Positions 31,493 to 41,426 are shown, counted from the first letter of the stretch. The stretch is 60,048 bases of DNA from a bacterium (GCA_024277675.1 JAJRUS010000139.1:1-60048), one strand, 5' to 3'. The notes: generated by a model from the sequence alone, not told the origin. Translations and numbers: made by a program.

Positions 31493-32731
31493 TTAATCCT
31501 CAAATTGCTTAAAGAGTAGAGTGGCGTTTGTTCCCCCAAAACCGAATGAATTGGAAAGCGCCATATTTACCGGCATCTTAAGCGCCTTATTGGGGACATA
31601 ATCCAGATCACAATCAGGATCAGGATTTTCATAATTTATGGTGGGGGTGACTATTCCGCGGGCAATGCTCAGCGCACATACTATGGCTTCCACCCCTCCG
31701 GCAGCCCCCAGCAGGTGGCCAACCATTGATTTGGTGGAGCTTACCTTAAGTTTATAGGCGTGTTCACCAAACACACTTTTGATAGCCTTGGTTTCATGCT
31801 TATCGCCAAAGGTGGTAGAAGTTCCATGGGCATTGATATAATCCACCTCTGGTGGAGCGACACCTGCATGATTCAGGCAGTTTCGCATGGAGCGCATGGC
31901 TCCTTCGCCTGAAGGATCCGGAGATGCGATATGGTAAGCGTCACCAGACATACCGAAGCCTACTATTTCGGCATATATTTTAGCTCCCCTGCGGCGGGCA
32001 TATTCCAGCTCTTCCAGAATTATTATCCCGGCGCCCTCTCCCATTACAAAACCGTCCCGGTCTTTATCAAACGGGCGGCTGGCGCGAGTGGGTTCATCAT
32101 TTCGGGTAGACAAAGCCTTCATGGCCGAGAAGCCACCCACCGCTAAAGGGGTTATTACCGATTCGGCCCCTCCGGCTATCATCACCTCGGCTTCACCCCG
32201 TTGAATACAGCGGTAAGCTTCGCCAATACAGTGGTTACCAGTAGCACAAGCAGTGACTATGGCATAATTAGGCCCTTTGAAACCAAAGCGGATAGAGATT
32301 TGACCTGAAGCCAGATTTACAATCAACATGGGGATAAAGAAAGGGGTAAGCTTACCGCCAGCCAATACCGCTTCATGCCACCGCTCAATTGCCGGTAAAC
32401 CACCAATGCCGGAACCTACCAATACCCCGGCCCGGTGGGACTCAGCCGCATCCACCTTTAACCGGGCGTCATCCATCGCCATCATACTGGCTGCCAGGGC
32501 GTATTGAATAAAGATGTCCATTTTCTTGACATCCTTGGCGGGAATATAATCCTTGGGATCAAAGCCTTTGACCTCCCCGGCGATGCGAGAATCATACCCG
32601 CAGGCATCAAACCGGGTTATATGCCCTACCCCCGACTCCCCCCGACACAAGGCAGACCACGTCTGTTCCACCCCAATACCTAATGGGGTGACTGCTCCCA
32701 AGCCGGTTACAACTATCCTTCTTTCAACCAA
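31493..32731 (-). CDS. fabF: 3-oxoacyl-ACP synthase II
   Basis: TACATG, NAHGTST, GHLLGAAG, SNSFGFGG. Confidence 0.96.
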   Translation of the reverse strand: MVERRIVVTGLGAVTPLGIGVEQTWSALCRGESGVGHITRFDACGYDSRIAGEVKGFDPKDYIPAKDVKKMDIFIQYALAASMMAMDDARLKVDAAESHRAGVLVGSGIGGLPAIERWHEAVLAGGKLTPFFIPMLIVNLASGQISIRFGFKGPNYAIVTACATGNHCIGEAYRCIQRGEAEVMIAGGAESVITPLAVGGFSAMKALSTRNDEPTRASRPFDKDRDGFVMGEGAGIIILEELEYARRRGAKIYAEIVGFGMSGDAYHIASPDPSGEGAMRSMRNCLNHAGVAPPEVDYINAHGTSTTFGDKHETKAIKSVFGEHAYKLKVSSTKSMVGHLLGAAGGVEAIVCALSIARGIVTPTINYENPDPDCDLDYVPNKALKMPVNMALSNSFGFGGTNATLLFKQFED

Positions 32732-32786: not shown

Positions 32787-33026
32787 TTACTTGGCCTCAC
32801 TATGTGCCTGAATATATCTCACGGCATCTCCCACAGTGGCAATCTTTTCGGCGTCATCGTCCGGAATTTCAATATCGAATTCCTCTTCGAAGGCCATTAC
32901 CAACTCCACTGTATCCAAGGAGTAAGCTCCTAGATCATCCACAAAGGAGGCCTCTGGGGTAATCTCTTCTTCAGCTACTCCCAGGTTATCAACAATAATA
33001 CTTTTTACCTTCCCGGCAACTTCCAT
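32787..33026 (-). CDS. acpP: Acyl carrier protein (motif reads GAYSLD rather than GADSLD)
   Basis: [27 protein letters not shown]. Confidence 0.93.
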
Positions 33027-33192: not shown

Positions 33193-33939
33193 CTACATAT
33201 ACATACCCCCATTTACCGATATCACCTGTCCGGTAATATAATCAGCGGCCGGCGAGAGCAGAAATTTAGCGGCTGCGGCCACTTCTTCCGCGGTGCCAAA
33301 TCTGGCCAGCGGAATGCGGTTCAGGATTTGCTCTTTTACCTCGGTGGATAAGCCTTTAGTCATATCAGTAGCTATAAATCCGGGAGCGATAGCATTAACC
33401 GTAATTCCGCGTGGGGCCAGCTCCTGGGCCACGGTTTTGGTAAGCCCGATTATACCGGCCTTGGCGGCGGCATAGTTGGCCTGACCCGAATTTCCGGTTA
33501 AGCCTACCACTGAGGTTATATTTAAAATCTTACCCTTTCTGGCTTTCAGCATGTGACGAGCCGCACACCTGGTAAGATTGAACGCTCCACTTAAATTAAC
33601 CGCCAACACCTCATCCCAATCCGGCTTACTCATTCTGATAAGCAAACCGTCTCTGGTAATACCGGCATTATTAACCAATATATCCAACCGGCCAAACTGC
33701 CCGATTAGCTGCTTTACCGCCTGCTCCACCTGCGCATAATCGGCTACCTCAACCGATAAGGCCAGCGCCCTAACCCCCAACTGTTCAATTTCAGCGGCTA
33801 CGCGTTGGCAACGCTCCTGGTTGCGTGCCAAGATGGCCACATCAGCCCCATCGGAAGCCAGCGAGAGCGCAATCGAGCGACCGATTCCCCTTGAACCGCC
33901 GGTTACTAGGGCCACCTGCCCGTTGAACACTTTATCCAT
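33193..33939 (-). CDS. fabG: 3-oxoacyl-ACP reductase
   Basis: TGGSRGIG, NNAGITRD, GQANYAAAK. Confidence 0.95.
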   Translation of the reverse strand: MDKVFNGQVALVTGGSRGIGRSIALSLASDGADVAILARNQERCQRVAAEIEQLGVRALALSVEVADYAQVEQAVKQLIGQFGRLDILVNNAGITRDGLLIRMSKPDWDEVLAVNLSGAFNLTRCAARHMLKARKGKILNITSVVGLTGNSGQANYAAAKAGIIGLTKTVAQELAPRGITVNAIAPGFIATDMTKGLSTEVKEQILNRIPLARFGTAEEVAAAAKFLLSPAADYITGQVISVNGGMYM

Positions 33940-33941
33940 GT

Positions 33942-34880
33942 TTAACACCCCTTTAATACGCTCAAAGTCTTTTGCAGATTATTTTCATCTTCCACTTGCA
34001 AAATGCCGGCATTTTTATTTATACGCTTAAGCAGTTTCTTTAGCACCTGGCCGGGGCCTAACTCAATGAAGGTATCCACTCCTTTGTCTATCATATACGA
34101 AATGGAATCCTCCCACAACACCGCAGATGATACCTGTTTAATAAGCGCCGCTTTTATCTCGGCAGCCGAGGTTATCGGTTTAGCGGTTACATTACTGATG
34201 ATTGGAACTTGCGCCTGGTTCAACGTTAGCTGCTCCAATTCATAAGCCAATTTTTCTCCGGCGGCGCTCATCAAGCTGCAATGAGAGGGGATAGAAAGCG
34301 GCAACTGTTTTGCTAATTTAGCTCCGCGCTCCTTGGCTTGCTGCATGGCCTTAAGCACCGCGTCTCTCGAACCTGAAATAACCACCTGCCCCGGGCAATT
34401 GAAATTGGCCGCCTCCACTATATCGGGAGGGTTAAAGCCCCTGCATATATCCAATACCTCATCCCGTTTAAGACCTATTATAGCCGCCATCGCCCCTTGT
34501 CCTTCCGGTACGGCGGCTTGCATATATGCGGCCCTTTTTTGCACCAATAACAGTGCCTGTTCAAAGCTTAAACTACCGGCGGCTACCAAGGCGGTATACT
34601 CTCCCAGGCTGTGCCCGGCCAGCATATCGGGCTTTATGCCGTTATCGCTAAGAACCGCCCAGGCTGCTATACTAGCGGTTAAAATCGCCGGTTGAGTGTG
34701 GATAGTCCGGTTTAGTTCTGCTTCGGGACCGCAAAAACACAACTGACTTAAATCATAACCCAGAATTTGATCGGCCTGCTTAAAATAAGCCCTGGCCTTG
34801 GGATAGACATCCGCCAGTTCCTTACCCATACCCACATATTGCGATCCCTGACCGGGAAATAAAAATGTACGTTTACTCAT
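33942..34880 (-). CDS. fabD: Malonyl-CoA:ACP transacylase
   Basis: FPGQGSQ, GHSLGEY. Confidence 0.96.
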   Translation of the reverse strand: MSKRTFLFPGQGSQYVGMGKELADVYPKARAYFKQADQILGYDLSQLCFCGPEAELNRTIHTQPAILTASIAAWAVLSDNGIKPDMLAGHSLGEYTALVAAGSLSFEQALLLVQKRAAYMQAAVPEGQGAMAAIIGLKRDEVLDICRGFNPPDIVEAANFNCPGQVVISGSRDAVLKAMQQAKERGAKLAKQLPLSIPSHCSLMSAAGEKLAYELEQLTLNQAQVPIISNVTAKPITSAAEIKAALIKQVSSAVLWEDSISYMIDKGVDTFIELGPGQVLKKLLKRINKNAGILQVEDENNLQKTLSVLKGC

Positions 34881-35116: not shown

Positions 35117-35461
35117 TCATAGCTCAATGCTCACTACCACCGCCAGTGCGCTGGTAATTTTTTGCATCACTGTATTAGAGAGCTTTCCCAATCGCCGTAT
35201 ACATCTTTCTTGCGCTACCGAGCGTACCTGAAAAGCATCTGCGGCTGAGGGTTTGTCCAATCCATTTTTGGTATCAGATTCCAAGCGAACCATCCAGGAG
35301 GCAACAGCATAACGGTCTTTCCATTCGGTAATGGGAACGATTACCTTCAACGGCAAAATACCAATGGCATTATCACTTACTATGATCGCCGGGCGAGTTT
35401 TCTTGATCTCAGCGCCAATCGTTGGAGACAAATTGATGAGCCAGATTTCACCCCTCCGCAT
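35117..35461 (-). CDS. PemK/MazF-family toxin
   Basis: MRRGEIWLINLSPTIGAEIKKTRPAIIVS. Confidence 0.9.
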   Translation of the reverse strand: MRRGEIWLINLSPTIGAEIKKTRPAIIVSDNAIGILPLKVIVPITEWKDRYAVASWMVRLESDTKNGLDKPSAADAFQVRSVAQERCIRRLGKLSNTVMQKITSALAVVVSIEL

Positions 35462-35693
35462 GAAAGTCCTCACTGTCGAGAGCGGTGAAAGCGGTTAGCT
35501 CACCACCAGCAACGTAATCTGGTAACAGGGCCTTTGCTGCGGCAGCTAGTTGTCGTTTCTTTTCCGTCTGTGTTAGTGGTTGTTTCATCCGTTTAAAGTC
35601 TTCACGAACCAGATGCAACTCAGCTTCAATAATTGCCAGGCGTTCCGTCAGCGTAAGCTTTTTGAATTCCTCCAGCAGCTTTACTTGAGTCAT
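35448..35693 (-). CDS. Putative cognate antitoxin
   Basis: 81-aa ORF overlapping the toxin start; acidic C-terminus ELTAFTALDSEDF. Confidence 0.7.
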   Translation of the reverse strand: MTQVKLLEEFKKLTLTERLAIIEAELHLVREDFKRMKQPLTQTEKKRQLAAAAKALLPDYVAGGELTAFTALDSEDFHAEG

Positions 35694-35711: not shown

Positions 35712-36902
35712 TTACCCCAGCACTTCTTTAAAGCGTTGGGTCAAGGCGGGCACTATATCAAATAAATCGCCTACAATACCGTAGGTGGCCACGTTAAATA
35801 TGGGGGCCTCCGGGTCAGTGTTTATGGCCACTATCACATCCGAGGACTGCATACCTGCCAAATGCTGAATAGCGCCGGATATGCCGCAGGCTATATATAG
35901 CTTGGGACATACGGTTTTGCCGGTCTGACCCACCTGATGCGAATACGGAATCCAGCCGGCATCCACTGTGGGGCGGGATGCGCCGACCGCCCCGCCTAAC
36001 ACCTTGGCCAAATCTTCTATCAGCTTGAAATTTTCCGGCTTACCCAGACCGCGGCCACCGGAAACAATAATATCGGCTTCGGTTAAATTAACCGTATCGG
36101 TTATCTCCTCCACCAGCTCAATCAGTCTGGTGCGTAAGGTTAGCTTGCCGGCATCAATTTCTTTGGTGATTATCTTACCCTTACGGCTTTTGTCACAAAC
36201 CGCCTGCTTCATCACCTTATGCCGTACAGTAGCCATCTGCGGCCGGTTATATGGACAAAGTATAGTGGCCATAATGTTGCCGCCAAAGGCCGGTCGGGTT
36301 TGCTCCAGTAACTTGCTTTCGGGGTTTATTTCAAGCTGAGTGCAATCGGCAGTCAGCCCGGTGTGTAACTTAACCGCTACTTTAGGAATAAAAGAGCGGC
36401 CTATGGCCGTAGCCCCGGTAAGCACGATATTGGGCTTATATTCGTTAATTAGCTCGGTTAACACCTGGGCATAGGAGTCATCGTGAAAGTCTTCCAACAC
36501 CGGGTCATCTGCTAAATATACCTCGTCTGCCCCATAATAAATAAGCTGTTGGGCAGCTTCCTGCACGTTATTACCCAGAAGTACCGCCGCCAACGGCTGG
36601 CCCAGTTTATCGGCCAGCTTGCGGCCCTCTCCCAAAAGCTCATAGGCTACACTTGAAACCTGCCCCCTACGCTGTTCGGCGAATATCCACACTCCGCGAT
36701 AGCTACTTAAATCTCCTTTTGCCTCACGCTCATCTATAATCATAATCGCCTCTGTAGCGCATACCTCCACACACGAGCCGCACAGGGTACACTCATCACC
36801 GATAACCGCCACTTCACCCTCGATGGAGATTGCCCCGTAGGGACAGGCCGGTATACATACCTCGCAGGCGATACATTTTTCTGCTAACACCTTAATGCTC
36901 AT
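35712..36902 (-). CDS. etfA: Electron transfer flavoprotein alpha subunit with N-terminal 2x[4Fe-4S] ferredoxin domain
   Basis: CIACEVCIPACP and CTLCGSCVEVC; GLTADCT, RPAFGGN, QVGQTGK, GISGAIQHLAG. Confidence 0.95.
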   Translation of the reverse strand: MSIKVLAEKCIACEVCIPACPYGAISIEGEVAVIGDECTLCGSCVEVCATEAIMIIDEREAKGDLSSYRGVWIFAEQRRGQVSSVAYELLGEGRKLADKLGQPLAAVLLGNNVQEAAQQLIYYGADEVYLADDPVLEDFHDDSYAQVLTELINEYKPNIVLTGATAIGRSFIPKVAVKLHTGLTADCTQLEINPESKLLEQTRPAFGGNIMATILCPYNRPQMATVRHKVMKQAVCDKSRKGKIITKEIDAGKLTLRTRLIELVEEITDTVNLTEADIIVSGGRGLGKPENFKLIEDLAKVLGGAVGASRPTVDAGWIPYSHQVGQTGKTVCPKLYIACGISGAIQHLAGMQSSDVIVAINTDPEAPIFNVATYGIVGDLFDIVPALTQRFKEVLG

Positions 36903-36986
36903 AGTTTTCTTTGCCCTATTCTATTTAATAAATTTTTTGCTGCTTGCTAAAAAATCATTTATTAAGCATTTAAATCTAAAACCATT

Positions 36987-37772
36987 TTACACCACTCGAT
37001 CTTGTTTTAGCTGGGCAACCAGTTTATCCACTATTTCCGGAGTACTGCCGGTAAGCGTCTCTCCACTCCCCCGCGGAGGCGGTGTGAATATTTTAACCAC
37101 CTTGGTGGGTGAGGCCGGCAAACCTACGCTGTCCTCGGTCACTCCCAAATCTTTTAAATTCCAGCTGGTAATTTCAGCTTTTTTGGCGTTCAGCTTACCG
37201 CGTAAAGACGGCAGCCGGGGTTCATTTATTTCCTTGACCACGGTGATAAGCGCCGGCAGTTTGCTCTCAATTACTTCATAACCCTCATCCATCAGCCGTT
37301 CCACCCGCAGCAGGCTGTCATCTATCTCTTCTATTTTCCGGATATAGGCTACAAATGGAATGTCCAGAAATTCGGCTATTCCAGGGCCTACCTGGGCGGT
37401 ATCACCATCTATGGCCTGCTTACCGCACACAATTAGGTCAAAATCGCCGATCTTCTTAATGCCTTGTGCCAGGGTATATGAGGTAGCCCAGGTGTCCGAG
37501 CCGGCGAAGGCTCTGTCAGAGAGCAACACCGCTTCATCAGCCCCCAGGGATATGGCTTCTCTGAGTGCGGTTTCCGCCTGAGGCGGGCCCATGGTCAGCA
37601 CGGTTACCGTACCCCCGCAACGCTCGCGTAGCCTTACTCCCTCTTCTATGGCATAGGCGTCGTAGGGATTGATAATAGATTCCACCCCTTCTCTAACCAG
37701 GGTATTGGTTTCCGGGTTTATCTTTACCTGAGTAGTGGCTGGCACTTGTTTTATACAGACGATTATTTTCAT
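36987..37772 (-). CDS. etfB: Electron transfer flavoprotein beta subunit
   Basis: VCIKQVP, INPYD, DRAFAGSDTWAT, GKQAIDGDTAQVGP. Confidence 0.96.
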   Translation of the reverse strand: MKIIVCIKQVPATTQVKINPETNTLVREGVESIINPYDAYAIEEGVRLRERCGGTVTVLTMGPPQAETALREAISLGADEAVLLSDRAFAGSDTWATSYTLAQGIKKIGDFDLIVCGKQAIDGDTAQVGPGIAEFLDIPFVAYIRKIEEIDDSLLRVERLMDEGYEVIESKLPALITVVKEINEPRLPSLRGKLNAKKAEITSWNLKDLGVTEDSVGLPASPTKVVKIFTPPPRGSGETLTGSTPEIVDKLVAQLKQDRVV

Positions 37773-37776
37773 TTTT

Positions 37777-37899
37777 GAAATTCCCCAATTTTTTCGTATA
37801 ACAATGTTGCTTCACAAAATGCCTCCCTGCGATATACCAGAAAGTATGCCTCAGTCGCCATTTTGTTTGCGCCCTGTTCTCCGAAATCTGGGAAAATTC
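37777..37899. repeat. Degenerate palindromic MITE-like element between acyl-CoA dehydrogenase and etfB
   Basis: Imperfect IR GAAATTCCCCAATTTTTTCGTATAAC / GTTCTCCGAAATCTGGGAAAATTC; central hairpin like that of the 7969 element. Confidence 0.4.
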
Positions 37900-37953
37900 C
37901 CACCAAATTATCCAACTTCATGCCCCTTTTTAGAGAAATTATAGCGTTTGTTT

Positions 37954-39108
37954 TTACTTACTGGCGCTTTCTTTTATAAGTTGTAAGGCGATTACGTTGC
38001 GTTGTATCTGATTGGTGCCCTCATAAATCTGGGTAATCTTGGCATCCCGCATCATCTTCTCCACCGGATACTCCCGCATATAGCCGTAGCCTCCCAGAAT
38101 CTGCACCGCATCGGTGGTGACTTTCATACACATATCAGCGGCAAACAGTTTACACATGGCGGAGACCTTGGATACATTCCTGGCGCCGCTATCCACATGT
38201 CTGGCGGTTGCATAAACCAGCGCCCGGGCGGCCTCGATCTGGGTGGCCATATCGGCCAGCATATGCTGGATAGCCTGGAACGAGGAAATGGGTTTGCCGA
38301 ACTGCACCCGCCGGCGGGCATAGCTAAGCGCCTCATCCAACGCACCCTGGGCGATACCCACCGCCTGCGCCCCAATTCCGGGGCGGGTGCAATCCAGCGT
38401 CTTCATGGCTACGATGAACCCCATGCCTTCCCTGGCTAATAAATTTTCTTTGGGCACGCGGCAATTCCTGAAGATAAGTTCAGTGGTGGATGAGCAACGG
38501 ATGCCCATTTTTTTCTCTTTTTTGCCGAAACTAAAACCCTCCCAGCCCTTCTCTACAATAAAAGTGCTGGCACCCCGGCTGCCTTTAACTTTATCAGTCA
38601 TGGCTACTACGGTATAGGTATCAGCTTCTCCGCCGTTAGTAATCCACTGTTTAGTGCCGTTTAGTACATAATGATCCCCATCGGCTACCGCGGTGGTCTG
38701 GATACCGCCGGCATCACTGCCGGCCTCCGATTCGGTCAGCCCAAAGGCGGCCAACTTTTTGCCGCTGGCTATATCAGGCAGGTATTTTTGTTTCTGAGCT
38801 TCATTACCAAACAGCAATATAGGATAAGTCCCCAGGCCGCTCGCCGCATAACACACCGCCACCCCGCCGCAGGCCCGACTGATCTCCTCGGTAGCCAGGC
38901 ATAACTCAAAACAACCGCCGCCCATCCCGCCGTACACTTCAGGAATATATAAGCCGCACATATCAGACTCAGCCAACACCTTCATGATTTCCCAGGGGAA
39001 TTCCTCTTTTTCATCCAGTTCAGCCCGCACCGGCACAATTTTTTCCTGGGCGATCTGACGGGCTAAATCCCTAATCATCTGTTGTTCTTCAGTAAGAAAA
39101 TAATCCAT
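37954..39108 (-). CDS. Acyl-CoA dehydrogenase (Bcd/CarC-like)
   Basis: FGLTESEAGSDA, GTKQWITNG, KMGIR, QILGGYGY, IYEGTNQIQR. Confidence 0.95.
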   Translation of the reverse strand: MDYFLTEEQQMIRDLARQIAQEKIVPVRAELDEKEEFPWEIMKVLAESDMCGLYIPEVYGGMGGGCFELCLATEEISRACGGVAVCYAASGLGTYPILLFGNEAQKQKYLPDIASGKKLAAFGLTESEAGSDAGGIQTTAVADGDHYVLNGTKQWITNGGEADTYTVVAMTDKVKGSRGASTFIVEKGWEGFSFGKKEKKMGIRCSSTTELIFRNCRVPKENLLAREGMGFIVAMKTLDCTRPGIGAQAVGIAQGALDEALSYARRRVQFGKPISSFQAIQHMLADMATQIEAARALVYATARHVDSGARNVSKVSAMCKLFAADMCMKVTTDAVQILGGYGYMREYPVEKMMRDAKITQIYEGTNQIQRNVIALQLIKESASK

Positions 39109-39215: not shown

Positions 39216-40199
39216 CTACCACCTGATCAAAGCCGCCGCCCAGGCCAAACCGCTTCCGAAGGCGGACAACAATACCAGATCTCCCCGTTTTAAGCGGCCA
39301 TTACGGGCAGCCTCATCTAAGGCAATAGGAATAGAAGCAGCTGAGGTGTTGCCATACTTGTGAATAATGGAATATACCTTATCCAGGGGAAGGGATAAGG
39401 CGTTAGCTACGGCCTGGATGATGCGACTATTGGCCTGATGGGGAACAAAAAGAGCTACATCTTCGATAGTGAATCCGTTATCTTTTAAAATGGTTTGGGC
39501 TGATTCGGTTAAGTTACGCACCGCTATTTTAAATATTTCGTTACCCTTCATTTTAATATGATGTAATCCTTCAGTTATTGTTTTATGACTTGCAGGTAAC
39601 CTCGAACCACCGGCCGGCATAACCAGCAAATCGGCAAAAGAGCCGTCGGTATATAATCGGATATCAATAATGCCCCGCCGATTATCATCGCCGGCCTGTA
39701 CCACCGCTGCTCCCGCTCCATCGCCGAATAATACGCAGGTATTGCGGTCACTCCAATCTACTGTTTTGGAAATGGTCTCCGCACCGAGAATCATGATATT
39801 TTTATAGCTACCGGACAACAAAAACTGCTCAGCTACCTTCAGCCCATAGACGAAACCCGAACAAGCGGCATTAAGATCAAAGGCGGCGGCATTCTCAGCC
39901 TCAAGCTGGTGTTGAATCAGGCAGGCCGTGGCTGGAAACACCCGGTCCGGGGTTACGGTGGCTACAATGATCAAATCCAACTCAGCCGCCGTAATCCCGG
40001 CAGCATCCAGCGCAGCCGTAGCTGCCGGTACTGCCAGATCGGAGGTGGCTATATTGTCTTCCGCTAACCGGCGCTCACTAATACCGGTACGGGTTTGAAT
40101 CCATTCGTCCGAAGTATCCACCTTTTTTTCTAAATCGAAGTTGGTGAGCACCCTTTCCGGGAGGTAGGAGCCGGTGCCGATAATTATTGCGCGTGCCAA
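39216..40199 (-). CDS. fabH: 3-oxoacyl-ACP synthase III
   Basis: AACSGF, PHQAN, GNTSAASIP. Confidence 0.96.
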   Translation of the reverse strand: MARAIIIGTGSYLPERVLTNFDLEKKVDTSDEWIQTRTGISERRLAEDNIATSDLAVPAATAALDAAGITAAELDLIIVATVTPDRVFPATACLIQHQLEAENAAAFDLNAACSGFVYGLKVAEQFLLSGSYKNIMILGAETISKTVDWSDRNTCVLFGDGAGAAVVQAGDDNRRGIIDIRLYTDGSFADLLVMPAGGSRLPASHKTITEGLHHIKMKGNEIFKIAVRNLTESAQTILKDNGFTIEDVALFVPHQANSRIIQAVANALSLPLDKVYSIIHKYGNTSAASIPIALDEAARNGRLKRGDLVLLSAFGSGLAWAAALIRW

Positions 40200-40202
40200 A
40201 AC

Positions 40203-41237
40203 TCAGGTTTTCCTTTCACTAATGCTGCTCCACAATTTAGCGGCCTTACTGCGTTGAATAATATTGGCCTCTATATGTTCATTTACGTTATGTTTTACAA
40301 ATTCCGAGGCCACCCGAATAGCATTCTTAATAGCCTTGGCGCGGGATTTACCGTGGCAGATAATACAAACCCCATTCATGCCTAATAACGGTGCACCGCC
40401 ATATTCAGAATAATCGATCCGCTGCCTCAACCCGATCAGTGAGCTTTGCAGCAATCGCCCGCCTATTCTATTTAAAAAGCTTTTTTCCGCTTCCCGCTTA
40501 AAGAGTATGCTAAGCGTATCCGCCAGCGCCTCACTCATCTTGAGCGCCACATTTCCGGCAAAACCGTCACATACAATCACATCCGCATCGCCATTATAAA
40601 TATGCTTACCTTCCACATTGCCAAAAAAATTAAGCGGAATTTCTTTTAGTAGTTCATGTGTCTGCTTGGTAAGCTCATTCCCCTTGCCCGGTTCCTGTCC
40701 AATGTTCAATAAACCGATTTTCGGGTCAGCAATCCCCATTACATCCTGGGCGTACATCTTCCCCATAATGGCAAATTGAAGCAGATGGAAAGGCTTACAA
40801 TCCACATTAGCCCCTACATCCAGAATAAGAGTCAGCCCCTTCATCGAAGGCAGTAGCGCCGCAATTGCCGGGCGTTCAACGCCTTTTAACGAACCAAGCG
40901 TTAACTTGGCGCAAGCCATAGCCGCACCGGTATTACCGGCGCTGATCATGGCCTGAACCTCACCGTTTTTAACCGCTAAGGCAGCTTTAAATAGAGATGA
41001 ATCCCTTTTGCGCCGCAGTACGGTCACAGGGGCCTCATCCATACCGACTACATCGGCGGCGGGAATCACCTGTAGCTTAAGCCCGCTGGTATCATGTTTG
41101 GCCATTTCCTGCCGGACAACCTGTTCGATTCCCACCAGGCAAACTTCCAGATCGTACTCTCTGGCAGCCCAAATAGACCCTTCGACCACTGCTTCCGGGG
41201 CATTATCGCCCCCCATTGCATCAATGGCAATTTTCAT
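40203..41237 (-). CDS. plsX: Phosphate acyltransferase PlsX
   Basis: IAIDAMGGDNAP, SAGNTGA, DGFAGNVALK. Confidence 0.96.
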   Translation of the reverse strand: MKIAIDAMGGDNAPEAVVEGSIWAAREYDLEVCLVGIEQVVRQEMAKHDTSGLKLQVIPAADVVGMDEAPVTVLRRKRDSSLFKAALAVKNGEVQAMISAGNTGAAMACAKLTLGSLKGVERPAIAALLPSMKGLTLILDVGANVDCKPFHLLQFAIMGKMYAQDVMGIADPKIGLLNIGQEPGKGNELTKQTHELLKEIPLNFFGNVEGKHIYNGDADVIVCDGFAGNVALKMSEALADTLSILFKREAEKSFLNRIGGRLLQSSLIGLRQRIDYSEYGGAPLLGMNGVCIICHGKSRAKAIKNAIRVASEFVKHNVNEHIEANIIQRSKAAKLWSSISERKT

Positions 41238-41240
41238 GAT

Positions 41241-41426
41241 CTATTTTTGCGCTTCAAGTCTAATTATCTCTTGGCCATTATAATAGCCACAATCCATACA
41301 TACCCGATGGGGAAGTTTTACTTCCTGGCACTGGGGGCAGGTGGTATATTGGGTAGCGGTCAATTTTTTGTGAGTGCGGCCCTTATCCCGCTTGGATCTG
41401 GATATTTTTCTCTTCGGTAAAGCCAT
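41241..41426 (-). CDS. rpmF: 50S ribosomal protein L32
   Basis: MALPKRK...CPQC...PHRVCMDCGYY. Confidence 0.95.
   Translation of the reverse strand: MALPKRKISRSKRDKGRTHKKLTATQYTTCPQCQEVKLPHRVCMDCGYYNGQEIIRLEAQK

What the first reader, a model, noticed from the sequence alone, without database searches (positions are those of the whole stretch)
35712..39108. Acyl-CoA dehydrogenase-EtfB-EtfA(ferredoxin) in the enoyl-ACP reductase slot of the FAS II operon: candidate electron-bifurcating enoyl-ACP reductase
Seen: rpmF-plsX-fabH-[acd-etfB-etfA]-(TA)-fabD-fabG-acpP-fabF-rnc, all co-oriented, with no fabI/fabK/fabV/fabL in the window. EtfA carries two [4Fe-4S] motifs, and EtfB has FAGSDT and GKQAIDGDTAQVGP segments like bifurcating ETFs. 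Known: in many anaerobes fabK lies between fabH and fabD. Bcd-EtfAB and caffeyl-CoA reductase CarCDE (ferredoxin-fused Etf subunit) reduce enoyl-CoA with NADH while bifurcating electrons to ferredoxin, which is the same chemistry as enoyl-ACP reduction. Inference: this complex may perform the last elongation step on ACP substrates and recover reduced ferredoxin, an energy-conserving FAS. Alternatively it supplies short or branched acyl-CoA primers to FabH.
Basis: partly seen in the sequence, partly recalled or inferred. Interest (0 to 1): 0.85.

Follow-up and report, generated by a model that had tools for sequence, protein, structure and literature searches.

The report
Flavoprotein complex replacing enoyl-ACP reductase
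A butyryl-CoA-dehydrogenase-like enzyme with its two electron-transfer partners sits inside the fatty-acid-synthesis operon of a bacterium that has none of the known enzymes for the last reduction step, and the same pattern recurs in many anaerobic phyla, so it probably does that step and may save energy while doing it.

Summary
The operon rpmF-plsX-fabH-acd-etfB-etfA-(MazEF-like pair)-fabD-fabG-acpP-fabF-rnc lies on the minus strand. EtfAB is of the electron-bifurcating CarDE type, and EtfA carries an N-terminal 2x[4Fe-4S] domain. The 96%-complete genome has no FabI, FabL, FabK or FabV. It has one ACD and one EtfAB, those of the operon. It has no crotonase, and only weak cross-hits for Hbd and thiolase. 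Its only NMO-family protein is a FabX orthologue. ACD orthologues (69-78% identical) lie next to FAS II genes in 38 of 80 species genomes from at least 8 named phyla. 68 of those 80 genomes have no recognisable enoyl-ACP reductase. In 71 Nitrospirota genomes, 31 have the ACD, 38 have FabI or FabK, none has both and 2 have neither. Best reading (confidence about 0.6): an ACAD/Etf-type enoyl-ACP reductase, probably NADH-driven and reducing ferredoxin. Use of ACP substrates and bifurcation are inferred, not shown. Against it, 5 linked genomes also hold a known or FabK-like reductase, and some Bacillota have the complex together with FabI. Ten literature searches found no description.

The parts
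37954..39108 (-). acd: acyl-CoA-dehydrogenase-family flavoprotein (384 aa), the proposed enoyl-ACP-reducing subunit
   Evidence: Pfam Acyl-CoA_dh_N/M/1. Best solved relative is the C. difficile bifurcating Bcd 5ol2_C at 445 bits. It is under the cut-off of every NCBIfam equivalog (best AcrC, 474 against 640). It is the only ACD in the genome. Orthologues are 69-78% identical in 80 species genomes.
36987..37772 (-). etfB: small Etf subunit of the bifurcating type
   Evidence: PF01012. Scores 239-286 bits to the five bifurcating Etf small subunits in PDB (CarD, LctB, 7koe, 5ol2_B, 4kpu_B), against 71-104 bits to non-bifurcating ones. The GKQAIDGDTAQVGP segment aligns with CarD.
35712..36902 (-). 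etfA: large Etf subunit with a fused N-terminal 2x[4Fe-4S] ferredoxin domain
   Evidence: ETF + ETF_alpha + Fer4. Aligns along residues 1-391 with CarE 6fah_A at 497 bits, with all eight cluster cysteines aligned.
39216..40199 (-). fabH, upstream neighbour
   Evidence: TIGR00747 at 434 bits, above cut-off 292.
33942..34880 (-). fabD, downstream FAS II gene
   Evidence: TIGR00128 at 358 bits, above cut-off 261.
33193..33948 (-). fabG, the only classical SDR in the genome
   Evidence: TIGR01830 at 340 bits, above cut-off 298. It is the single PF13561 hit in the genome.
32787..33026 (-). acpP, the proposed carrier of the substrate
   Evidence: TIGR00517 at 113 bits, above cut-off 70; alignment A1.
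31493..32731 (-). fabF
   Evidence: TIGR03150 at 652 bits, above cut-off 494.
40203..41426 (-). rpmF-plsX, the head of the operon
   Evidence: TIGR01031 and TIGR00182. The best promoter-like site lies upstream, at 41525-41497.
35117..35693 (-). inserted two-gene module (81-aa ORF plus PemK/MazF-like toxin), not part of the proposed enzyme
   Evidence: PF02452 at 89.6 bits. Neither gene was found in any of the 80 related loci.

Best explanation
Acd-EtfB-EtfA is the enoyl-ACP reductase of this organism's type II fatty acid synthase. It would be a non-orthologous replacement of FabI/FabK/FabL/FabV. The mechanism is proposed by homology with Bcd-EtfAB and CarCDE. NADH reduces the bifurcating FAD in EtfB. 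One electron goes through the FAD of EtfA domain II to the FAD of the ACD, which reduces trans-2-enoyl-ACP to acyl-ACP. The other, low-potential electron leaves through the two [4Fe-4S] clusters of the EtfA N-terminal domain to ferredoxin. The net reaction would be 2 NADH + enoyl-ACP + oxidised ferredoxin giving 2 NAD+ + acyl-ACP + reduced ferredoxin, so each elongation cycle yields reduced ferredoxin. What is shown: gene content, synteny, absence of other reductases, complementary distribution, bifurcating-type sequence features, and conserved Etf-docking residues. What is inferred: ACP rather than CoA as the thioester carrier, the reductive direction, chain-length range, and ferredoxin reduction.
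For: (1) FAS II is otherwise complete. fabH, fabD, fabG, acpP and fabF are in the window. FabZ (46% to E. coli FabZ, next to lpxA) and AccA lie elsewhere.
(2) No known reductase was found in the 95.9%-complete genome. PF13561 hits only FabG. PF00106 gives only FabG plus two hits of about 20 bits. FabV models gave nothing; the same model found a FabV at 587 bits in G055, so it works. E. coli FabI and a FabL query hit only FabG, and FabK queries hit only one NMO gene. That NMO gene is a FabX orthologue: 263 bits to H. pylori FabX 7e1q against 113 bits to FabK 7l00, with the 4 Cys conserved. The one MDR protein is IolM, 536 bits against cut-off 450.
(3) The ACD and EtfAB are the only ones in the genome. 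There is no crotonase. Hbd gave only weak Rossmann hits, and thiolase only a FabH cross-hit and one weak hit. The ACD therefore has no CoA pathway to serve.
(4) Synteny: acd is next to FAS II genes in 38 of 80 loci (21 after fabH, 3 after plsX, 1 after rpmF, 9 after fabF/rnc, 4 as acd-etfBA-fabD). These come from Actinomycetota, Margulisiibacteriota, Rokuibacteriota, Nitrospirota, Thermodesulfobacteriota/Deltaproteobacteria, Omnitrophota, Planctomycetota and Pseudomonadota MAGs. Linkage survives rearrangement.
(5) In 12 loci where acd is not fab-linked, none of 128 neighbouring ORFs is a beta-oxidation or butyrate gene.
(6) Census: 68 of 80 ACD-holding genomes have no FabI, FabL, FabV or FabK-like gene of 250 bits or more. 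Among the 38 linked genomes, 33 have none.
(7) In 71 Nitrospirota genomes at least 85% complete, 31 hold the ACD orthologue (70-77% identity; the next ACDs are at most 49%). 38 hold FabI or FabK, the overlap is 0, and 2 have neither.
(8) In the own phylum the ACD is in 16 of 20 genomes, and in 10 of 11 high-quality ones. G098 (94% complete) has the ACD but no FabI-like and no NMO hit.
(9) The EtfAB is of the bifurcating type, with a CarE-like ferredoxin domain.
(10) Bcd residues at the Etf interface named in PMC5691135 (passages) map to E198, E210, W155, Y341, E346 and Y347 in the window ACD. These are invariant or nearly so in 44 orthologues.
(11) ACAD-family enzymes that act on carrier-protein thioesters exist. 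A prolyl-ACP dehydrogenase (4irn) appears, and the MbtN acyl-ACP dehydrogenase and RedW/PigA models.
(12) The ACD is the most conserved protein of the operon: median 73% identity against 66% for AcpP and 49-59% for FabD/H/G/F. The loci were chosen by ACD similarity, which inflates this figure.
Against: No test of ACP binding or activity was possible, and nothing in the sequence marks it as ACP-specific. It is about 57% identical to a genuine butyryl-CoA dehydrogenase.
Coexistence with known reductases occurs in 5 of the 38 linked genomes: G039 has FabL (382 bits, above cut-off), G055 has FabV, G074 has FabI, and G028 and G038 have FabK-like proteins of 338 and 260 bits.
Four Bacillota MAGs (FabI) and G021, which clusters with them in the quick tree (FabK), hold a 73-75%-identical acd-etfBA that is not fab-linked. 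The clade's role therefore need not be that of the sole reductase.
Class-level relatives in the own phylum (G082-84, G093, G094) have the ACD together with FabK-like proteins of 262-276 bits. G081-85 and G093 also have divergent FabI-like proteins.
In three loci (L003, L009, L110) a short NMO-family gene with a 4-Cys motif sits in the same fab operon and could itself be a reductase.
The Nitrospirota split probably follows a few deep lineages and lifestyle, so the 31/38/0 table represents few independent events.
Most genomes are MAGs of unknown completeness. FabV was not searched in the Nitrospirota sample or in the own phylum's relatives.
Confidence: 0.6

Rival explanations
1. It is an ordinary CoA-level bifurcating enoyl-CoA reductase (Bcd- or acryloyl-CoA-reductase-like). 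It would be co-transcribed with FAS II to supply short acyl-CoA primers to FabH or to balance redox, and the real enoyl-ACP reductase would belong to an unknown family.
For: The closest solved and curated relatives are CoA enzymes: 5ol2_C Bcd at 445 bits and NCBIfam AcrC at 474 bits. acd usually lies directly after fabH, the primer-using enzyme, in 21 of 38 linked loci. Bacillota with FabI keep the same complex away from fab genes.
Against: The own genome has no crotonase, and only weak cross-hits for Hbd and thiolase, so nothing would make an enoyl-CoA. No beta-oxidation or butyrate genes occur among 128 neighbours in 12 unlinked loci. The rival needs a second, unseen enzyme family to explain 68 of 80 genomes without a reductase. 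In 9 loci the genes sit after fabF/rnc, not beside fabH.
Confidence: 0.15
2. The Fe-S-containing NMO-family proteins (FabX-like, or the short 4-Cys type) are the true reductases, run in reverse. Acd-Etf would be an accessory electron module or unrelated.
For: The own genome has a FabX orthologue. A short 4-Cys NMO gene lies between acpP and fabF in L003, L009 and L110. FabX and FabK share a fold and catalyse the same reaction in opposite directions (PMC8626469, passages).
Against: Many ACD holders have no NMO hit at E<=1e-20. These include G098 (94% complete) in the own phylum, 7 of the 31 Nitrospirota ACD holders, and linked genomes such as G004, G005, G009, G026, G044, G046, G049 and G058. 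G021 has a true FabK as well as the short 4-Cys type. H. pylori FabX is a dehydrogenase/isomerase working alongside FabI.
Confidence: 0.08
3. It is the enoyl-ACP reductase but does not bifurcate. The ferredoxin domain would be an electron input (reduced ferredoxin plus NADH, or ferredoxin alone), or a dead-end relic.
For: Bifurcation rests only on homology to CarCDE and Bcd-EtfAB. Anaerobes often have reduced ferredoxin to spare.
Against: All five closest solved Etf small-subunit relatives belong to bifurcating or confurcating complexes, and the segments they share are conserved. The ferredoxin domain is retained in the orthologous EtfA genes examined: Fer4 hits or lengths of 396-406 aa in 9 of 9 loci with an etfA.
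Confidence: 0.12
4. It works oxidatively on acyl-ACP, as an anaerobic backtracking desaturation or lipid remodelling step, confurcating electrons to NAD+.
For: ACADs are dehydrogenases by default. Etf complexes can run in reverse, as in the Ldh-EtfAB confurcation (PMC9232219, listing). It co-occurs with FabX-like genes.
Against: This leaves the essential reductase missing. trans-2-enoyl-ACP is already made in every cycle by FabZ. The complementary distribution is with FabI and FabK, not with desaturation genes.
Confidence: 0.05

Closest known systems
Butyryl-CoA dehydrogenase/EtfAB complex of Clostridioides difficile and Acidaminococcus fermentans (PDB 5ol2, 4kpu, 4l1f)
   Same: It has the same three-protein make-up and flavin set. 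The ACD is the best PDB match (445 bits, about 57% identity). The Etf-docking residues are kept, and EtfB is of the bifurcating type.
   Different: Here the genes sit in a FAS II operon, in a genome without any crotonyl-CoA pathway. EtfA carries an extra ferredoxin domain. The orthologue clade (at least 69% identity) is separated by a long branch from four other Nitrospirota ACDs. The proposed substrate carrier is ACP, not CoA; that is inferred.
Caffeyl-CoA reductase CarCDE of Acetobacterium woodii (PDB 6fah)
   Same: EtfA aligns end to end with CarE, including the N-terminal 2x[4Fe-4S] domain (497 bits). EtfB is closest to CarD (286 bits).
   Different: The dehydrogenase subunit is nearer to Bcd (445 bits) than to CarC (345 bits). 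The context is biosynthetic, not respiratory.
FabI / FabL / FabV (SDR) and FabK (FMN TIM barrel) enoyl-ACP reductases
   Same: The proposed reaction is the same, and so is the place in the operon. The distribution is mutually exclusive with FabI and FabK in Nitrospirota.
   Different: There is no homology. This system has three subunits, three FAD and two Fe-S clusters, and is proposed to couple to ferredoxin.
ACAD-family dehydrogenases acting on carrier-protein thioesters (prolyl-ACP/PCP dehydrogenases 4irn, RedW/PigA; mycobactin acyl-ACP dehydrogenase MbtN)
   Same: They have the same fold and show that ACADs can take carrier-protein-bound substrates.
   Different: They are only distant relatives: 206 bits for 4irn, 81 bits for MbtN and 237-252 bits for PigA/RedW, all far under their cut-offs. 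Going by their names as dehydrogenases and by recall, they work oxidatively in secondary metabolism and are not known to use bifurcating Etf.
Helicobacter pylori FabX (PDB 7e1q), for the genome's only NMO-family protein
   Same: 263 bits over the full length, with the four cluster cysteines conserved.
   Different: In H. pylori oxygen is the only acceptor found (PMC8626469, passages). In this likely anaerobe the acceptor is unknown.

Membership tests
Electron-bifurcating EtfAB (Bcd-Etf / CarDE type) | EtfB groups with bifurcating rather than AMP-binding, non-bifurcating Etf small subunits | tested here: met
   239-286 bits to CarD, LctB, 7koe_A, 5ol2_B and 4kpu_B, against 71-104 bits to human, Paracoccus, Methylophilus and 5ow0 Etf.
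Electron-bifurcating EtfAB (Bcd-Etf / CarDE type) | Conserved EtfB segment around GKQAIDGDTAQVGP. That this segment lines the second FAD/NADH site is recalled, not from a call. | tested here: met
   The segment is present and aligned to the same segment of CarD.
Electron-bifurcating EtfAB (Bcd-Etf / CarDE type) | EtfA with an FAD-binding domain II | tested here: met
   PF00766 at 136 bits; aligned to CarE through residue 391.
CarE-type EtfA | N-terminal ferredoxin domain with two 4-Cys motifs | tested here: met
   Fer4 families hit at residues 3-60. Eight Cys align with CarE.
Electron-bifurcating EtfAB (Bcd-Etf / CarDE type) | NADH-dependent ferredoxin reduction coupled to enoyl-thioester reduction | not testable with these tools
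   Needs an enzyme assay.
Acyl-CoA dehydrogenase family (Bcd-like) | Three ACAD domains and the C-terminal catalytic Glu in the YEGT segment. The role of this Glu as catalytic base is recalled. | tested here: met
   Pfam N, M and C domains. E363-G364-T365 are invariant in 44 orthologues.
Acyl-CoA dehydrogenase family (Bcd-like) | Residues that dock EtfA domain II (Bcd E198, E210, F155, Y340, D345, Y346) | tested here: met
   The residues are named in PMC5691135. They map to E198, E210, W155, Y341, E346 and Y347, which are conserved in A2.
Named NCBIfam equivalogs (acryloyl-CoA reductase AcrC/AcrB/AcrA; EtfB exception model NF040731) | Score above the curated cut-off | tested here: not met
   AcrC 474 against 640, AcrB 258 against 475, AcrA 395 against 600, NF040731 346 against 445.
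Acyl-CoA dehydrogenase family (Bcd-like) | CoA thioester as substrate | not testable with these tools
   No CoA-contact residues could be mapped. The genome lacks enzymes that would make enoyl-CoA.
Known enoyl-ACP reductase families (FabI, FabL, FabV, FabK) | Homology of the candidate to SDR or NMO folds | tested here: not met
   The ACD and Etf hit no SDR or NMO family. This is a functional analogue, not a member.
Enoyl-ACP reductase as a functional role in FAS II | Encoded with the FAS II genes | tested here: met
   True of the window and of 38 of 80 loci.
Enoyl-ACP reductase as a functional role in FAS II | Fills a gap: no other reductase in the genome, and a distribution complementary with known reductases | tested here: met
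   Own genome. Nitrospirota: 31, 38, overlap 0, 2 with neither. Exceptions: 12 of 80 genomes hold a known or FabK-like reductase.
Enoyl-ACP reductase as a functional role in FAS II | Reduces trans-2-enoyl-ACP of C4 to C16-18 | not testable with these tools
   Needs an enzyme assay or complementation.
FabX (for the NMO protein at L001:1489-2559) | Closer to FabX than to FabK, with 4 Cys for a [4Fe-4S] cluster | tested here: met
   263 against 113 bits. The Cx3Cx3Cx7C motif is present.

The most novel reading that the evidence does not exclude
A new, non-homologous class of enoyl-ACP reductase: an electron-bifurcating acyl-ACP dehydrogenase/EtfAB-ferredoxin complex. It would replace FabI/K/L/V as the housekeeping reductase of type II fatty acid synthesis across many anaerobic phyla (Nitrospirota-Thermodesulfovibrionia, Omnitrophota, Margulisiibacteriota, Thermodesulfobacteriota, the window's own phylum and others). 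Lipid synthesis would then return one reduced ferredoxin per two-carbon elongation, so a biosynthetic pathway would conserve energy.
Probability: 0.45. Interest if true: 0.9.

Novelty: new variant of a known kind. Interest (0 to 1): 0.82.

Why it matters
Enoyl-ACP reduction is essential. It pulls each elongation cycle forward and is a classic antibiotic target, and FabI, FabL, FabV and FabK are the bacterial families recognised so far (recalled; the review by Massengo-Tiasse and Cronan was seen only as a reference). This reading would explain why whole anaerobic lineages appear to lack the step: 68 of 80 genomes here. It would add a family with a different fold and different cofactors. It would also be a case of flavin-based electron bifurcation inside a core biosynthetic pathway, not only in catabolism. 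The large free-energy drop of enoyl reduction by NADH would be partly recovered as reduced ferredoxin. That bears on the energy budgets of energy-limited anaerobes, on the early evolution of lipid synthesis, on reading lipid hydrogen-isotope signals, and on engineering fatty acid production. The prediction can be tested directly with purified proteins.

Tried and rejected
(1) Complex prediction with two ACD copies, two FAD and AcpP as partner gave no verdict (score 0.00, controls not run). It counts neither for nor against binding.
(2) The look-up of sequencing runs listed no RNA holder, only four DNA runs from one study with small shares. Nothing was laid, so there is no statement on expression.
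(4) The FabV search with PF12241 and the own-genome NF010177 search had void controls. The model was validated only later, by the FabV hit in G055.
(5) FabL was not searched as a family across genomes. I relied on the observation that a true FabL (382 bits on its own model) scored 157 bits on the FabI model. No other hit of 103-229 bits appeared in the 80 genomes. In the Nitrospirota sample only G147 gave such a hit, and it also has FabI.
(6) I looked for CoA-contact residues of Bcd in PMC5691135 to ask whether they are lost here. The passages name none, so CoA-versus-ACP specificity could not be read from sequence. A comparison of substrate-pocket depth with medium-chain ACAD would have rested on a recalled sequence and was dropped.
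(7) The careful maximum-likelihood tree did not finish. Only the quick tree is reported.
(8) The MDR protein on C73 was considered as a reductase and rejected, because it is IolM above its cut-off.
(9) The two adh_short hits of about 20 bits were not followed up.
(10) Ten literature searches, with passages read in PMC5317091, PMC4916218, PMC8085960 and PMC10234575, found no paper that ties an Acd-Etf complex to enoyl-ACP reduction. The library omits most subscription journals, and supplements were closed. That includes the FabX homologue lists, Figs S25 and S30 of PMC8626469.

Full report
**What is there.** On the minus strand the window carries one tight, co-oriented gene row. Pfam and NCBIfam name the genes as rpmF, plsX, fabH, an acyl-CoA-dehydrogenase-family gene (acd, 37954-39108), etfB (36987-37772), etfA (35712-36902), an 81-aa ORF, a PemK/MazF-like toxin gene, fabD, fabG, acpP, fabF and rnc. 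The finding's coordinates are exactly etfA to acd. The best promoter-like site of the region lies upstream of rpmF. Terminator-like sites are no more frequent than in shuffles, and none lies between genes on the coding strand. The two-gene toxin-antitoxin-like module between etfA and fabD was found in none of 80 related loci, so it is a local insertion.

**What kind of Acd-Etf this is.** The ACD has all three ACAD domains. Its closest solved relative is the butyryl-CoA dehydrogenase of the bifurcating C. difficile EtfAB/Bcd complex (5ol2_C, 445 bits). A. fermentans Bcd scores 412 bits and CarC 345 bits. The ACD reaches no NCBIfam equivalog cut-off; the best is acryloyl-CoA reductase AcrC, 474 against 640.

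EtfB scores 239-286 bits against the five bifurcating or confurcating Etf small subunits in PDB, but only 71-104 bits against non-bifurcating ones. EtfA aligns over residues 1-391 with CarE (497 bits), including the N-terminal domain with two 4-Cys motifs.

The residues of Bcd that dock EtfA domain II are named in passages of PMC5691135: E198, E210, F155, Y340, D345 and Y346. They correspond to E198, E210, W155, Y341, E346 and Y347 in the window ACD, and these are invariant or nearly so in 44 orthologues. By sequence, then, the three proteins form a Bcd-EtfAB/CarCDE-type complex. Bifurcation itself is inferred from this homology.

**The own genome lacks every known enoyl-ACP reductase and has no CoA pathway for the ACD.** The genome is 2.68 Mb in 139 contigs and 95.9% complete.
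- The SDR family PF13561 has one hit, FabG. PF00106 gives FabG plus two hits of about 20 bits.
- FabV models give nothing. The model later proved able to find a FabV elsewhere.
- tblastn with E. coli FabI and a FabL hits only FabG. FabK queries hit only one gene, on contig 23.
- That gene is the only real NMO-family member. It is an orthologue of H. pylori FabX, the decanoyl-ACP dehydrogenase/isomerase: 263 bits against 113 bits to FabK, with the four cluster cysteines conserved.
- The single MDR protein is IolM.
- FabZ (beside lpxA) and AccA are present, so the cycle lacks only the reductase.
- The operon's ACD and EtfAB are the only ones in the genome.
- There is no crotonase. Hbd gives only weak Rossmann cross-hits, and thiolase only the FabH cross-hit and one weak hit.

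A butyrate, beta-oxidation or crotonyl-CoA-to-primer role therefore has no supporting enzymes.

**The synteny recurs.** The ACD has very close relatives (76-91% identity among the best 120) in proteins labelled from many phyla. A scan of one genome per species returned 587 confirmed relatives, of which the best 80 loci were kept (69-78% identity). tblastn with the window's proteins shows acd next to FAS II genes in 38 of 80 loci:
- 21 directly after fabH;
- 3 after plsX;
- 1 after rpmF;
- 9 after fabF or rnc;
- 4 as acd-etfB-etfA-fabD.

In one further locus etfBA-fabD is linked while acd lies 7.7 kb away. The record titles name Actinomycetota, Margulisiibacteriota, Rokuibacteriota, Nitrospirota, Thermodesulfobacteriota/Deltaproteobacteria, Omnitrophota, Planctomycetia and Pseudomonadota. 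The position within the cluster changes while the linkage stays, which points to selection for co-expression.

In 12 loci without fab neighbours, Pfam annotation of 128 surrounding ORFs found no crotonase, Hbd, thiolase or other fatty-acid-degradation gene. The neighbours are unrelated housekeeping genes.

A quick ML tree puts all 80 sequences in one clade (SH-aLRT 100, stem length 0.93), apart from four other Nitrospirota ACDs of 44-49% identity. Inside the clade, groups follow taxonomy (the careful search did not finish).

The ACD is the most conserved protein of the operon. Median identity to the window is 73%, against 66% for AcpP, 62% and 60% for EtfB and EtfA, and 49-59% for FabD, FabH, FabG and FabF. 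The loci were chosen by ACD similarity, which inflates the first figure.

**Census of known reductases.** In the 80 genomes behind those loci:
- The FabI model gives real FabI in five. E. coli FabI itself scores 292 bits on this model. The five are G003, G015, G020 and G062, all Bacillota with an unlinked complex, and G074.
- One hit of 157 bits is a FabL (382 bits, above its cut-off).
- FabV occurs in one genome, G055.
- FabK at or near its cut-off occurs in G021 and G075. FabK-like proteins of 254-338 bits occur in G028, G038 and G045.

That makes 12 of 80 genomes with a known or FabK-like reductase, and 5 of the 38 fab-linked ones. The other NMO hits fall into three classes:
- FabX-like proteins, 48-84% identical to the own one, with the Cx3Cx3Cx7C motif;
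- a short 315-326-aa class with Cx2Cx3Cx4C. In L003, L009 and L110 this class lies between acpP and fabF, and it also occurs in G021 beside a true FabK;
- proteins of about 100 bits without the Cys motif.

Many linked genomes have no NMO hit at all at E<=1e-20.

**Complementary distribution.** The window's phylum holds only 20 species genomes. The ACD is in 16 of them, and in 10 of 11 high-quality ones. Twelve genomes of four families have neither a FabK-like protein nor, apart from one weak FabL-like hit in G088 (126 bits on the FabI model, 215 bits on the FabL model, under its cut-off), a FabI-like one. Nine of those twelve hold the ACD, and the three that do not are 63-87% complete.

G098 is 94% complete and has the ACD, no NMO hit and no FabI-like hit. 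G095 is the one high-quality genome without the ACD; it has a FabK-like protein (280 bits) and a divergent FabI-like one. But G082-84 and G093 have both of these together with the ACD, so the phylum gives no clean split.

The cleaner test is a sample of 71 Nitrospirota genomes at least 85% complete:
- 31 hold the ACD orthologue (70-77% identity, E<=1e-180; the next ACDs are at most 49%);
- 35 hold FabI (229-342 bits);
- 4 hold FabK above its cut-off, one of them also with FabI;
- the overlap between the ACD and FabI or FabK is 0;
- 2 genomes have none of the three.

Relatives are not independent, and the split probably tracks a few deep, lifestyle-linked lineages. It is nevertheless what non-orthologous displacement predicts. 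FabV was not searched in this sample.

**Best explanation.** Four facts point the same way. The essential step is missing. The only ACD/Etf of the genome sits in the fab operon. The linkage recurs across phyla. The genes exclude FabI and FabK within a phylum. Together they make the enoyl-ACP reductase role the most economical reading (confidence about 0.6).

There is precedent for ACADs acting on carrier-protein thioesters: prolyl-ACP dehydrogenase 4irn, and the MbtN and RedW/PigA models. By homology with CarCDE and Bcd-EtfAB, the complex should oxidise NADH at the EtfB flavin, send one electron through EtfA to the ACD flavin and the enoyl thioester, and send the other through the fused [4Fe-4S] domain to ferredoxin. 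Use of ACP, the reductive direction, chain-length range and ferredoxin reduction are all inferences.

**What speaks against it.**
- Nothing in the sequence marks ACP specificity.
- Five linked genomes also have FabL, FabV, FabI or a FabK-like protein. Redundant reductases are known in other bacteria (recalled), but this weakens the argument from a missing step.
- Four Bacillota with FabI, and G021 with FabK, keep the same complex away from fab genes, so the clade may have, or have had, another role.
- Three operons also hold a 4-Cys NMO gene that could be a reductase.
- Most genomes are MAGs.

The rivals are a CoA-level enzyme plus an unknown reductase, NMO Fe-S proteins as the reductase, a non-bifurcating reductase, and an oxidative role. 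Each is listed with its own tests.

**Novelty.** Ten full-text searches, with four papers read in passages, found no description of an Acd-Etf complex as an enoyl-ACP reductase. The library lacks most subscription journals and all supplements, so this is not proof that it is unpublished. The machine is a known kind, a bifurcating ACAD/Etf complex. The proposed role and substrate carrier are new, so I rate it a new variant of a known kind with high interest.

Noticed in passing
L001:1489-2559 (own genome, contig 23, minus strand): The genome's only NMO-family protein is a full-length orthologue of H. pylori FabX, with the four [4Fe-4S] cysteines conserved. In H. pylori oxygen is the only electron acceptor found. 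Which acceptor serves FabX-like enzymes in anaerobes is open.
   Followed up: partly
window 35117-35693 (minus strand): An 81-aa ORF with no family hit overlaps a PemK/MazF-like toxin gene, and the pair is inserted between etfA and fabD inside the fab operon. Neither gene occurs in any of the 80 related loci.
   Followed up: partly
window 32787-33026 (minus strand): In the window's AcpP the residue just before the phosphopantetheine serine is Tyr (LGAYSLD). All 16 other ACPs aligned have Asp there (LGADSLD).
   Followed up: no
L003:15167-16147, L009:6309-7271, L110:3989-4948: A short (319-326 aa) NMO-family protein with a Cx2Cx3Cx4C motif is encoded between acpP and fabF in fab operons (L110 covers only fabG-acpP-NMO-fabF; acd-etfBA of that genome lies on another contig, L050). 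It is 39-41% identical to the FabX-like protein and scores 179-195 bits on the FabK model. The same genomes carry acd-etfBA. The same class also occurs in G021 beside a true FabK.
   Followed up: partly
L054:2941-4080: The acd orthologue in this fab-linked locus has one in-frame stop codon. This could be a sequencing error, a pseudogene or recoding; it was not examined.
   Followed up: no
L101:2883-6235, L102:38-2030, L114:3959-7329: Relatives in the window's phylum carry a second small cluster: a 426-aa ORF (467 aa in L114; none upstream in L102, which starts at a contig end), a fabG-like gene, a 146-147-aa ORF, and a divergent FabI-like SDR (169-179 bits, under the cut-offs). It could be a specialised lipid pathway or a real FabI.
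   Followed up: partly
L126:367-1476, L127:425-1528: Many Nitrospirota that hold the ACD also hold an NMO-family protein of about 370 aa. It is 42-43% identical to the FabX-like protein but lacks the Cys motif, and scores about 100 bits on the FabK model. In G033 it is not near the fab genes. Its function is unknown.
   Followed up: no
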